In this document: in pieces, positions 2,276 to 2,704 of the stretch
How the letters are laid out: every line of letters starts with the position of its first letter
Position numbering within the stretch: the first letter of the stretch is position 1
IMG/VR virus record: IMGVR_UViG_3300027908_000025
Length of the DNA: 64,000 nt
DNA from: a virus
Strand: one strand, 5' to 3'
The notes under the pieces: model-generated
The model's database searches: none
Told to the model about the DNA's origin: nothing
The model's input: the letters and a program-made list of their open reading frames with translations, nothing else
Position numbers and translations under genes: made by a program

Positions 2276-2349
2276 TGGTGACCCAAGCAGGGTTCGAACC
2301 TGCGTTATCTTACCCGAAAGCAAGACGTCCTCCATTAGACGACTGGGCC
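2276..2349 (-). tRNA. tRNA-Glu-like RNA, anticodon arm TCTTGCT-TTCG-GGTAAGA
   Basis: 74-nt cloverleaf GGCCCAG...TTGGGTC ACCA; Glu-type D stem GTCT/GGAC; variable loop TAAC. Confidence 0.88.
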
Positions 2350-2408
2350 GATTAGCGAACAAGGGTTGCTGAGACTTCAATTCCATGTAATCCCAACTGC
2401 ATTTCGCT

Positions 2409-2482
2409 TGGTGACCTCGATAGGGTTCGAACCTATGTTACCTTACCCGAAGGCAAAGCGTCCTCCATTAGACGACGAGGCC
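2409..2482 (-). tRNA. tRNA-Glu-like RNA, anticodon arm CTTTGCC-TTCG-GGTAAGG
   Basis: 74-nt cloverleaf with encoded CCA; C(UUCG)G tetraloop; no U33. Confidence 0.88.
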
Positions 2483-2542
2483 GTGATTCTCTGCATTGAA
2501 CATTGTGACTATCAGGAAGGAAGGCGCTGTTCAGTGCAGAGA

Positions 2543-2616
2543 TGGTGACCCGAGTAGGGTTTTAACCTACGTTGACTTACCCGAGGGCAAGTTGTCCTCC
2601 CTTAGACGACCGGGCC
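2543..2616 (-). tRNA. tRNA-Glu-like RNA, anticodon arm ACTTGCC-CTCG-GGTAAGT, T-loop TTAAAAC
   Basis: 74-nt cloverleaf with encoded CCA; non-canonical T-loop. Confidence 0.88.
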
Positions 2617-2630
2617 AAACTTTTATGTAG

Positions 2631-2704
2631 TGGTGACCTCAGTAGGGTTTTAACCTACGTTCTCCTATCCGAAGATAGGCTGTCCTCCATTAGACGATGA
2701 GGCC
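2631..2704 (-). tRNA. tRNA-Glu-like RNA, anticodon arm GCCTATC-TTCG-GATAGGA, T-loop TTAAAAC
   Basis: 74-nt cloverleaf with encoded CCA; non-canonical T-loop. Confidence 0.88.

What the first reader, a model, noticed from the sequence alone, without database searches (positions are those of the whole stretch)
2276..2704. All tRNA-Glu-like copies carry the weak EF-Tu pair A51-U63, and two have lost the T-loop consensus
Seen: T stems are GCAGG, ATAGG, GTAGG, GTAGG (and GTAG at 1-4), i.e. A at position 51 in all five. Copies at 2543 and 2631 have T-loop TTAAAAC instead of TTCGAAN. Known: the 51-63 pair largely tunes EF-Tu affinity; ordinary tRNA-Glu uses the tight G51-C63 pair to offset weak Glu binding, and staphylococcal non-proteinogenic tRNA-Gly species have A51-U63 and altered T-loops. 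Inference: independent support that these RNAs avoid EF-Tu and the ribosome.
Basis: partly seen in the sequence, partly recalled or inferred. Interest (0 to 1): 0.72.

Follow-up and report, generated by a model that had tools for sequence, protein, structure and literature searches.

The report
Non-decoding tRNA-Glu mimics, weak EF-Tu stem
A large uncultured soil phage carries five copies of a glutamate-tRNA look-alike whose codon-reading loop is sealed shut and whose EF-Tu-contacting stem has changed from the tight pair of real glutamate tRNAs to a weak one, and related phages keep a glutamyl-tRNA synthetase gene nearby, so these RNAs probably work off the ribosome.

Summary
Observation confirmed and extended. 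All five copies (2276-2349, 2409-2482, 2543-2616, 2631-2704, 1-50, minus strand) have A51-U63. Three of them, not two, have the T loop UUAAAAC, which means C56 changed to A.

The pair is unusual for tRNA-Glu:
- G51-C63 occurs in 27 of 34 canonical phage tRNA-Glu genes; A-U occurs in 1.
- A tRNA-Glu pattern with G51 matched 78 of 121 Bacillota genomes. The A51 version matched only at control level.

In 23 copies from six related contigs, A51-U63 never varies, while 49-65 and 50-64 covary freely.

By the published T-stem table the copies score -9.0 to -9.6 kcal/mol. Canonical tRNA-Glu scores about -10.3 to -10.4. That is a 3- to 10-fold weakening, like the staphylococcal non-proteinogenic tRNA-Gly, but below that paper's 1.3 kcal outlier cut.

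The anticodon loop is sealed into a YUCG tetraloop; covariation supports this, and sealing is favoured by 4-9 kcal/mol. Decoding is therefore already excluded.

New here: two related phages encode a complete GluRS 5-10 kb from their arrays.

The T arm has left the translation regime, but active EF-Tu avoidance is untested. This scan has noted sealed-anticodon tRNA look-alikes in other huge phages before.

The parts
2276..2349 (-). tRNA-Glu mimic copy 1. T stem GCAGG/CCUGC (A51 at window 2301, U63 at 2289), T loop UUCGAAC. The anticodon arm is a 6-7 bp stem capped by UUCG. CCA is encoded.
   Evidence: Rfam tRNA 45 bits; R1 94.9 bits. Calculated EF-Tu term -9.6 kcal/mol with the table.
2409..2482 (-). 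tRNA-Glu mimic copy 2. T stem AUAGG/CCUAU, T loop UUCGAAC, cUUCGg-capped 7-bp arm. Its three-pair combination A49-U65/U50-A64/A51-U63 is the same as in S. aureus non-proteinogenic tRNA-Gly.
   Evidence: for the staphylococcal combination. Calculated -9.5.
2543..2616 (-). tRNA-Glu mimic copy 3. T stem GUAGG/CCUAC, T loop UUAAAAC (A56), arm capped by CUCG.
   Evidence: (34.6 bits); calculated -9.4.
2631..2704 (-). tRNA-Glu mimic copy 4. T stem GUAGG/CCUAC, T loop UUAAAAC (A56), 6-bp arm capped by UUCG.
   Evidence: calculated -9.4.
1..50 (-). tRNA-Glu mimic copy 5, cut by the window edge after G52. The rest, read from the identical contig L038, gives GUAGG-UUAAAAC-CCUAC.
   Evidence: 47.5 bits, truncated; 84.7 bits on L038.
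3013..3040 (-). Promoter-like site (TTGACG-16-TATACT). It could start one transcript through the 89-aa ORF, the four-copy array, the OmpA-family gene and the following genes down to copy 5.
   Evidence: This is a consensus match only. No terminator-like site lies between it and the array.
2725..2994 (-). 89-aa ORF directly upstream of the array, with a small winged-helix (HTH) fold.
   Evidence: Atlas structure matches, TM 0.58-0.69 to HTH_11/DsrD-like clusters. No Pfam hit.
1204..2244 (-). OmpA-family gene starting 31 nt after copy 1, on the same strand.
   Evidence: PF00691, E 3.5e-19.
19587..19661 (-). Ordinary tRNA-Arg(UCU) of the same phage, used as an internal control. Its T stem GCAGG/CCUGC calculates to -9.6, normal for its class (mean -9.3).
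   Evidence: (60.2 bits).

Best explanation
The five genes are selected, non-decoding descendants of a tRNA-Glu gene.

What they keep:
- the acceptor end G1-C72, G2-U71, C3-G70, A73 and an encoded CCA;
- the tRNA-Glu 'augmented D helix' (U11-A24, U13-G22, A46, four-base variable loop);
- the letters YUC at positions 34-36.

One extra base plus complementary 32/38 and 33/37a positions close the anticodon loop into a YUCG tetraloop, so no codon can be read.

The T arm has also left the regime of translating tRNA-Glu. The tight G51-C63 pair is replaced by A51-U63 in every copy, and C56 is replaced by A in three of five. By the published additive model this lowers the tRNA-body contribution to EF-Tu binding by about 0.7-1.3 kcal/mol (roughly 3- to 10-fold).

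Proposed mechanism (inferred):
1. The RNAs are cut out of a polycistronic transcript like tRNAs.
2. They are glutamylated, probably by the phage's own GluRS.
3. Because glutamate is a weakly bound amino acid and the stem is weak, they stay largely free of EF-Tu.
4. They then act off the ribosome, as a glutamate carrier or as a tRNA-Glu-shaped decoy for a host factor.

Shown: structure, ancestry, the T-arm departure and its rarity, conservation, and the GluRS linkage in relatives. Inferred: expression, processing, charging, reduced EF-Tu binding, and the acceptor or target.
For: - Cloverleaf with sealed arm: ARAGORN finds only a 2-base 'anticodon' and the minimum-energy folds agree.
- 23 copies from six contigs: 97.3% of cells paired, 13 pairs with compensatory changes, all 7 anticodon-arm pairs covary including 33:37a, and 0 of 500 shuffles reach the score (8-sequence version).
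- Sealing is favoured by 4.3-8.7 kcal/mol over an open 8-base loop.
- Glu ancestry: R1's top hits in three unrelated bacteria are tRNA-Glu at 49-53 bits, against 41-43 for Gln/Arg/Val. The D-stem and variable-loop identity elements match the list in PMC9976931.
- T arm within the family: A51-U63 in 23/23 and G52-C62 in 23/23, while 50-64 is CG 11, UA 11, GC 1 and 49-65 is GC 18, AU 4, CG 1.
- T arm in controls: 27/34 G-C and 1/34 A-U, with a calculated mean of -10.28 (sd 0.33; 32 of the 34 could be calculated); 33/34 have TTC in the T loop and 0/34 have TTA. In 121 Bacillota genomes the G51 pattern hit 78 and the A51 pattern hit 5, equal to the reversed-pattern control and not tRNA-like.
- Energetic table and class means: PMC3239215.
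- GluRS: L096 15437-16858 matches Pfam tRNA-synt_1c at 290 bits and Anticodon_2 at 92 bits, and PDB GluRS 8i9i at E 4e-99, with HIGH-type and KLSKR motifs. L095 has one as well. No canonical tRNA-Glu was found in those 20-kb loci.
Against: - No expression data exist; only DNA runs hold the sequence.
- Charging is untested. E. coli GluRS depends strongly on an accessible U34, U35, C36 and A37, which a closed tetraloop hides.
- The calculated shift is at or under the 1.3 kcal outlier threshold of the source paper, and that model misses 1.8 kcal for E. coli tRNA-Glu.
- Strict A-U, never U-A or G-U, is more than EF-Tu avoidance requires.
- The GluRS is seen only in relatives. The window itself (121 ORFs scanned) has no GluRS and no tRNA-dependent transferase.
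- A 307-kb phage with a similar sealed mimic has no GluRS-family gene.
- One other sealed lineage (L010) keeps G51-C63.
Confidence: 0.5

Rival explanations
1. The RNA is an uncharged decoy or sponge. It is made in bulk to bind a tRNA-Glu-recognising host factor, such as a tRNA-directed defence nuclease, a 3'-end-modifying toxin or GluRS itself. It is never aminoacylated, so EF-Tu is irrelevant. The T-arm changes are then either drift after decoding was lost or contacts for that other partner.
For: - The sealed loop hides the strongest GluRS determinants.
- Tandem multi-copy arrays suggest dosage.
- The window also holds a cyclic-phosphate receiver domain, a free HisRS-type anticodon-binding domain and an alarmone-hydrolase-type HD domain, which fits a conflict over tRNAs.
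- Invariant A-U rather than any weak pair suggests sequence-specific recognition.
- Other sealed lineages show mixed 51-63 states: A-U, U-A, a mismatch and G-C.
Against: - The full-length GluRS near the arrays of two relatives needs another explanation.
- Encoded CCA, A73 and acceptor pairs 1-3 are invariant in 23/23 copies, as expected for an aminoacylation substrate.
- YUC is kept at 34-36 even in the one copy whose cap (CUCG) is not a classic stable tetraloop.
Confidence: 0.25
2. The elements are cis-acting processing signals: tRNA-shaped punctuation that RNase P and 3' nucleases cut to separate the mRNAs of a long operon, as in mitochondria or MALAT1/mascRNA. The released RNA itself has no job.
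For: - All copies lie between same-strand ORFs with no terminator. One sits 31 nt before the OmpA-family start.
- In L015 single copies flank very small ORFs.
Against: - Four copies in tandem with 14-60 nt spacers are not needed for punctuation.
- The D stem and the tRNA-Glu-specific core are invariant while generic helices drift, which points to Glu-specific recognition rather than mere tRNA shape.
- Type II copies lose the D-loop GG and the T-loop motif that RNase P uses.
Confidence: 0.1
3. The RNAs are still decoding tRNAs with an expanded 8-base anticodon loop, for example quadruplet or frameshift readers. In that case the T stem matters for EF-Tu in the usual way.
For: Counted with a 5-bp stem, the loop has 8 bases with YUC in the normal 34-36 register and an extra base 3' of position 37, as in known frameshift suppressors (reading).
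Against: - Positions 32/38 and 33/37a covary as Watson-Crick pairs in 23 copies: UA 13, CG 5, GC 4, AU 1 at 33:37a.
- U33 is replaced by C in many copies.
- The pairing probability of the two inner pairs is 0.85-1.0.
- The weak T stem is the opposite of what a Glu-carrying decoder needs.
Confidence: 0.03
4. The copies are decaying tRNA-Glu pseudogenes, and the T-arm oddities are random damage.
For: ARAGORN misses two of the four complete copies, and Rfam scores are only 34-45 bits.
Against: 97% of stem cells are paired, with 98 compensatory cells across six phage contigs. The 3' end is invariant, and synteny next to the same zinc-ribbon gene is conserved.
Confidence: 0.02

Closest known systems
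Non-proteinogenic tRNA-Gly of Staphylococcus (NP1-NP3), the glycine donors for FemXAB peptidoglycan synthesis
   Same: - A tRNA whose first three T-stem pairs are shifted to a weak EF-Tu combination. Copy 2 has the identical A49-U65/U50-A64/A51-U63 set.
- The calculated value is the same, about -9.5 kcal/mol.
- The T loop is altered.
- Several paralogous copies exist.
   Different: - The staphylococcal species keep a working UCC anticodon loop and change U55 (TGC/TGT). Here the anticodon loop is sealed and the change is C56->A.
- The amino acid would be Glu, not Gly.
- The genes are in a phage.
- No Fem-type transferase was found in the window.
Canonical bacterial and phage elongator tRNA-Glu (Rfam RF00005, Glu isotype)
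   Same: - Same acceptor type (GGCC.../...GGUCA), D stem GUCU/GGAC and 4-base variable loop NAAC.
- YUC at 34-36 followed by G37, as in many phage tRNA-Glu.
- The best R1 hits in bacteria are tRNA-Glu.
   Different: - The loop is not a 7-base anticodon loop.
- A51-U63 replaces G51-C63, and A56 appears in 3 of 5 copies.
- The D loop is short, at 6 bases.
Weak-binding second tRNA-Glu(UUC) of Helicobacter pylori and other 'outlier' tRNAs listed by Schrader and Uhlenbeck 2011
   Same: A tRNA-Glu gene with a T stem predicted (and, for H. pylori, measured) to bind EF-Tu poorly. The authors proposed such tRNAs as donors outside translation.
   Different: Those outliers are 2.3-2.4 kcal from the class mean and keep normal anticodon loops. 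Here the shift is about 1 kcal and the loop is sealed.
tRNA-shaped RNAs without an anticodon: mascRNA (from MALAT1), the YrlA tRNA-like domain, and the predicted b7a-tRNA of RNA-repair operons
   Same: A cloverleaf-like RNA processed by tRNA enzymes, lacking a usable anticodon loop and acting off the ribosome. mascRNA even carries Glu/Gln-type identity features and is not aminoacylated.
   Different: - No Ro/Rsr, RtcB or Band-7 gene appears among the window's Pfam hits, and no Y-RNA match appears in Rfam.
- mascRNA is eukaryotic and single-copy.
- None of these is described with a linked GluRS.

Membership tests
Elongator tRNA-Glu (decoding) | Cloverleaf with a 7-bp acceptor stem, D arm, 5-bp T stem and a 3' discriminator plus CCA | tested here: met
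   Rfam tRNA 34.6-45 bits, above the gathering score of 29. Folds; pair counts.
Elongator tRNA-Glu (decoding) | tRNA-Glu body identity: U11-A24, U13-G22 with A46, and no residue 47 | tested here: met
   D stem GUCU/GGAC is invariant in 23/23 copies. Variable loop NAAC. Element list from PMC9976931. R1's best bacterial hits are tRNA-Glu.
Elongator tRNA-Glu (decoding) | Open 7-base anticodon loop with U33 and an accessible YUC anticodon followed by A37 | tested here: not met
   The loop is closed to 4 bases by covarying pairs, favoured by 4.3-8.7 kcal/mol. ARAGORN reports a 2-base 'anticodon'. C33 occurs in several copies, and position 37 is G.
Elongator tRNA-Glu (decoding) | Tight EF-Tu T stem (G51-C63; class mean about -10.4 kcal/mol) | tested here: not met
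   A51-U63 in 23/23 copies, calculated at -9.0 to -9.6. Canonical controls: 27/34 G-C, mean -10.28.
Elongator tRNA-Glu (decoding) | T loop U54-U55-C56-R57-A58 with the G19-C56 elbow pair | tested here: not met
   Two of five copies conform. Three have A56 with G19 unchanged. Type II relatives lose the motif altogether.
Non-proteinogenic (EF-Tu-evading) aminoacyl-tRNA donors, Staphylococcus tRNA-Gly type | T-stem combination predicted to be weak relative to the isoacceptor class | tested here: met
   0.7-1.3 kcal weaker than canonical tRNA-Glu, and the same absolute value as the NP tRNA-Gly.
Non-proteinogenic (EF-Tu-evading) aminoacyl-tRNA donors, Staphylococcus tRNA-Gly type | Aminoacylated by the cognate synthetase | not testable with these tools
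   The only indirect evidence is a full GluRS gene 5-10 kb from the arrays in L095 and L096. None is seen in the window.
Non-proteinogenic (EF-Tu-evading) aminoacyl-tRNA donors, Staphylococcus tRNA-Gly type | Measured weak binding to EF-Tu-GTP | not testable with these tools
   Calculated only.
Non-proteinogenic (EF-Tu-evading) aminoacyl-tRNA donors, Staphylococcus tRNA-Gly type | A tRNA-dependent transferase that consumes the charged RNA | tested here: not met
   No LanB/PEARL, FemABX, L/F-transferase, cyclodipeptide synthase, MprF or HemA family among the 14 Pfam families hit by 121 window ORFs, or in the precomputed Pfam of relatives' loci. The rest of this phage genome is not available.
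b7a-tRNA / YrlA-type tRNA mimics of RNA-repair operons | Encoded next to RtcB, Band-7 or Ro60/Rsr genes; Y-RNA stem for YrlA | tested here: not met
   No such Pfam family in the window and no Y-RNA family in Rfam. A cREC domain is present, but about 13 kb away.

The most novel reading that the evidence does not exclude
A family of soil phages runs a private, ribosome-independent glutamyl-RNA system. A phage GluRS would load arrays of sealed-anticodon tRNA-Glu carriers. Their invariant A51-U63 T stem and remodelled elbow would keep them out of EF-Tu and the ribosome. The activated glutamate, or the charged RNA itself, would be used by an as yet unidentified phage enzyme or aimed at a host tRNA-Glu-dependent process.
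Probability: 0.3. Interest if true: 0.85.

Novelty: new variant of a known kind. Interest (0 to 1): 0.66.

Why it matters
Tuning of the T stem to escape EF-Tu is experimentally established for very few tRNAs, chiefly the staphylococcal cell-wall tRNA-Gly.

Here the same signature sits on a phage RNA that cannot decode at all. It is conserved without exception across 23 copies in six phage contigs, and in relatives it is linked to a phage GluRS.

If the RNAs are charged, this would be a virus-encoded non-ribosomal aminoacyl-RNA system. If they are not charged, they are an abundant tRNA-Glu decoy. Either way they give a concrete handle on the sealed-anticodon tRNA look-alikes that keep turning up in huge phages and that I could not find described in the literature held here.

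The work also yields a simple, testable rule: position 51-63 separates the mimics from real tRNA-Glu.

Tried and rejected
- **Whole genome:** none is held for this window, so the host tRNA-Glu and the rest of the phage could not be inspected.
- **RNA runs:** no RNA holder is listed among public runs; two soil-metagenome DNA runs hold the stretch.
- **BLAST against phage records:** the array found nothing.
- **IMG/VR scans:**
  - The exact family is absent. A pattern with the family D arm plus YTCG gave only coding-sequence look-alikes.
  - A pattern through the T stem gave L023 and three chance hits.
  - A T-stem-blind pattern gave L023 again and nothing else tRNA-like.
  - A protein-based search with the 325-aa neighbour found no relative.
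- **Genome-collection scan:** it gave three chance matches, used only as handles.
- **147-aa neighbour protein:** it has no homolog beyond itself, and the representative id was not on record.
- **Arg ancestry:** I rejected it for this family, since tRNA-Glu is R1's best hit in three bacteria and the D arm, variable loop and acceptor stem are Glu-type.
- **Neighbour structures:** models of the two conserved unknown proteins next to the relatives' arrays were too poor to search (mean pLDDT 41.6 and 29.8). The 297-aa one has an HxD...H pattern that looks like a 2OG/Fe(II) oxygenase, by eye only.
- **PHROGs and Pfam:** they gave no function for those neighbours.
- **GluRS link in other lineages:** it is not general. 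One of five records had only a 289-aa catalytic-domain-only paralog, and one of five control phages had a 274-aa one too.
- **Literature:** searches for anticodon-less or tetraloop tRNA mimics in phages found no description. The Burroughs and Aravind 2016 paper is not held.

Full report
**What is there**

The window looks like part of a large uncultured soil phage. About 120 small ORFs lie mostly on the minus strand, with homing endonucleases and PHROG-only matches. No host genome is held, and the DNA occurs in soil-metagenome runs.

On the minus strand lie four complete tRNA-shaped genes: 2276-2349, 2409-2482, 2543-2616 and 2631-2704. A fifth is cut by the window edge at 1-50. All five encode A73 and CCA.

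A promoter-like site at 3040->3013 precedes an 89-aa ORF, the array, an OmpA-family gene and further genes, with no terminator-like site in between.

**Checking the observation**

The T stems read GCAGG, AUAGG, GUAGG and GUAGG, with GUAG at the window edge. Their 3' strands are complementary, so A51-U63 is present in all five copies.

The T loops are UUCGAAC in two copies and UUAAAAC in the copies at 2543 and 2631. An identical public contig completes the fifth copy as GUAGG-UUAAAAC-CCUAC. The variant loop is therefore in three of five copies.

The variant keeps U54, U55, a purine at 57 and A58. Its one real departure is C56->A, the partner of G19 at the elbow, and G19 does not change with it.

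**What the RNAs are**

- *Sealed loop in the window copies.* ARAGORN reports a two-base 'anticodon', and the minimum-energy folds give a 6-7 bp arm capped by UUCG or CUCG. The distance from D stem to T stem is a constant 23 bases. YUCG always sits at standard positions 34-37: the Glu anticodon letters plus G37, with one extra base on the 3' side.
- *Relatives.* I found copies in two short metagenome contigs (L014, L015). Further copies came from the zinc-ribbon protein that follows the array, which led to longer contigs (L095-L099).
- *Covariation.* Twenty-three distinct copies from six contigs give 97.3% paired cells, 13 pairs with compensatory changes and a covariation score that no shuffle reaches. 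All seven pairs of the anticodon arm covary, including the two that lie inside what would be the anticodon loop.
- *Energetics.* ViennaRNA favours the sealed state by 4.3-8.7 kcal/mol over an open eight-base loop.

These RNAs are therefore selected and cannot decode. Pseudogenes and expanded-loop decoders are excluded or very unlikely.

**Ancestry**

A covariance model of the family (R1) finds tRNA-Glu as its best hit in three unrelated bacterial genomes, at 49-53 bits. The next best hits are Gln, Arg and Val at 41-43 bits.

The D stem GUCU/GGAC (U11-A24, U13-G22), A46 and the four-base variable loop are the GluRS 'augmented D helix' elements listed in PMC9976931. They are invariant in all 23 copies. 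The acceptor stem of copy 2 equals that of a canonical phage tRNA-Glu.

**Is A51-U63 unusual?**

- Among 80 assorted canonical tRNAs in hand it is common (19 of 80). The window's own tRNA-Arg(UCU) has it, and that is normal for the Arg class.
- For tRNA-Glu it is rare. All 7 canonical tRNA-Glu from the first loci have G51-C63.
- Thirty-four distinct canonical phage tRNA-Glu, picked by a pattern that does not touch the T arm, have G-C in 27 and A-U in 1. TTC is in the T loop of 33 and TTA in none.
- In 121 Bacillota genomes a tRNA-Glu(UUC) pattern with G51 hits 78 genomes. The same pattern with A51 hits 5, equal to the reversed-pattern control, and none of those hits looks like a tRNA.

**How much does it matter for EF-Tu?**

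Schrader and Uhlenbeck's additive table gives +1.1 kcal/mol for A-U at 51-63 (PMC3239215). The family calculates to -9.0 to -9.6 kcal/mol. For comparison:

| tRNA set | Value (kcal/mol) | Source |
|---|---|---|
| This family, calculated | -9.0 to -9.6 | |
| Bacterial tRNA-Glu(UUC), class mean | -10.4 (sd 0.48) | |
| E. coli tRNA-Glu, measured | -12.2 | |
| Phage tRNA-Glu controls, calculated mean | -10.28 (sd 0.33) | |
| Staphylococcal non-proteinogenic tRNA-Gly, calculated | -9.5 | |

Copy 2 shares the exact three-pair combination of the staphylococcal tRNA-Gly.

The shift is real but moderate. It is at or below the 1.3 kcal cut that paper used for outliers, and the model under-predicts E. 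coli tRNA-Glu by 1.8 kcal.

**Conservation**

A51-U63 and G52-C62 are invariant in 23 of 23 copies. In contrast, 50-64 is CG 11, UA 11, GC 1, and 49-65 is GC 18, AU 4, CG 1.

The pair even survives in a second subtype (type II). That subtype has lost the D-loop GG, shortened the T stem to four pairs and replaced the T loop by CUCAUAC.

The invariant pairs cluster at recognition sites: acceptor pairs 1-3, the D stem, and 51-63 with 52-62. This argues for constraint rather than drift. However, U-A or G-U would be equally weak for EF-Tu, so strict A-U may reflect another partner.

**New context**

Both relatives with enough flanking sequence encode a complete bacterial-type GluRS 5-10 kb downstream of the array. 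It has the catalytic domain at 290 bits, the anticodon-binding domain at 92 bits, and a match to PDB 8i9i at E 4e-99. No canonical tRNA-Glu was found in those 20-kb loci.

By synteny (L014 links the window's 147-aa gene, copy 5 and the zinc-ribbon gene), the corresponding region of this phage lies just beyond window position 1 and cannot be seen.

The link is not universal across other sealed-mimic lineages. No tRNA-dependent transferase appears in the window or in the relatives' precomputed annotations.

**Verdict**

It is not independent proof, for three reasons:
- it is one inherited change;
- its calculated size is moderate;
- charging and binding are untested.

The sealed anticodon already settles non-decoding. 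The T arm adds the more specific and testable idea that the RNA is kept away from EF-Tu.

My best reading is a probably glutamylated, off-ribosome tRNA-Glu carrier or mimic. An uncharged decoy is the main rival.

The class of sealed-anticodon tRNA look-alikes has been noted by this scan in other huge phages. I found no published description. The nearest published parallels are the staphylococcal tRNA-Gly, the weak H. pylori tRNA-Glu, mascRNA and the predicted b7a-tRNA.

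Noticed in passing
window 3037-3594 (minus strand): The 185-aa protein one gene upstream of the array (only the 89-aa ORF lies between) has a C-terminal part (residues about 110-176) whose Atlas model aligns with the bL12 C-terminal domain. TM is 0.66 by the 76-aa L7/L12 CTD cluster, and a largely viral cluster with Zn-ribbon plus Ribosomal_L12 also matches. Pfam finds nothing at E 0.01. bL12 CTD is the ribosomal docking site for EF-Tu and other GTPases, so its position beside EF-Tu-weak tRNA mimics may not be chance.
   Followed up: partly
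L095 20035-end; L096 15437-16858: Related phages encode a full-length GluRS with HIGH-type and KLSKR motifs and an anticodon-binding domain. It lies 5-10 kb downstream of their mimic arrays. No canonical tRNA-Glu lies in the 20 kb around.
   Followed up: partly
L015 676-747; L097 8568-8640 and 9668-9740; L095 9053-9125, 9200-9271 and 9678-9750; L096 9458-9530 and 9599-9674: A second subtype of the mimic has lost the D-loop GG (loops such as AAGGCGA or ACGAAA), has a 4-bp T stem and has the T loop CUCAUAC. It keeps A51-U63, G52-C62, the D stem, the UUCG-sealed arm and the CCA end. Both partners of the tRNA elbow changed together.
   Followed up: partly
L023 1323-2232 and 2845-3251: A 132-kb viral contig with a GOLLD RNA (324 bits) carries five tRNA-Glu-bodied genes with hairpin insertions in the D loop and assorted anticodon arms: one normal UUC loop, one UUCG-sealed and others expanded. 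The sealed copy has A51-U63 while its normal-loop sibling has G51-C63. The contig also encodes a 289-aa GluRS catalytic-domain-only paralog, which looks GluQRS-like in size.
   Followed up: partly
L004/L006, L005, L007, L010 (IMG/VR contigs): Other phage lineages share the exact 16-base D arm and also have shortened anticodon loops of 4-6 bases. L005 (UUAGAAU) and L007 (UCAGAAC) also have A56. L004 and L005 carry tmRNA genes, and L007 carries a type II hammerhead ribozyme.
   Followed up: no
L046-L094 (IMG/VR contigs): Many canonical phage tRNA-Glu(UUC) genes have G37 instead of the A37 that is a GluRS determinant in E. coli. The G37 of the mimics is therefore probably inherited from a phage tRNA-Glu.
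   Followed up: no
window 46736-47182, 15341-15757 and elsewhere: Pfam hits among the window ORFs include a stand-alone HGTP-type anticodon-binding domain, a cyclic-phosphate-processing receiver domain, an HD_4 (alarmone-hydrolase-type) domain, a 2OG-Fe(II) oxygenase and a SprT-like protein. Several of these touch tRNA or RNA damage.
   Followed up: no
L095 11546-12439 and orthologs in L096, L097 and L099: A conserved 282-297-aa protein two genes after the zinc-ribbon gene shows an invariant H-x-D ... H pattern typical of 2OG/Fe(II) oxygenases. A Peptidase_M50 gene is conserved two to three genes further on. The structure model was too poor to test the fold.
   Followed up: partly
L015 (minus strand) between copies at 1203-1276 and 1007-1080: A 30-residue lysine-rich ORF with its own ribosome-binding site sits between two mimic copies. 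The zinc-ribbon proteins after the arrays also have very lysine-rich tails.
   Followed up: no
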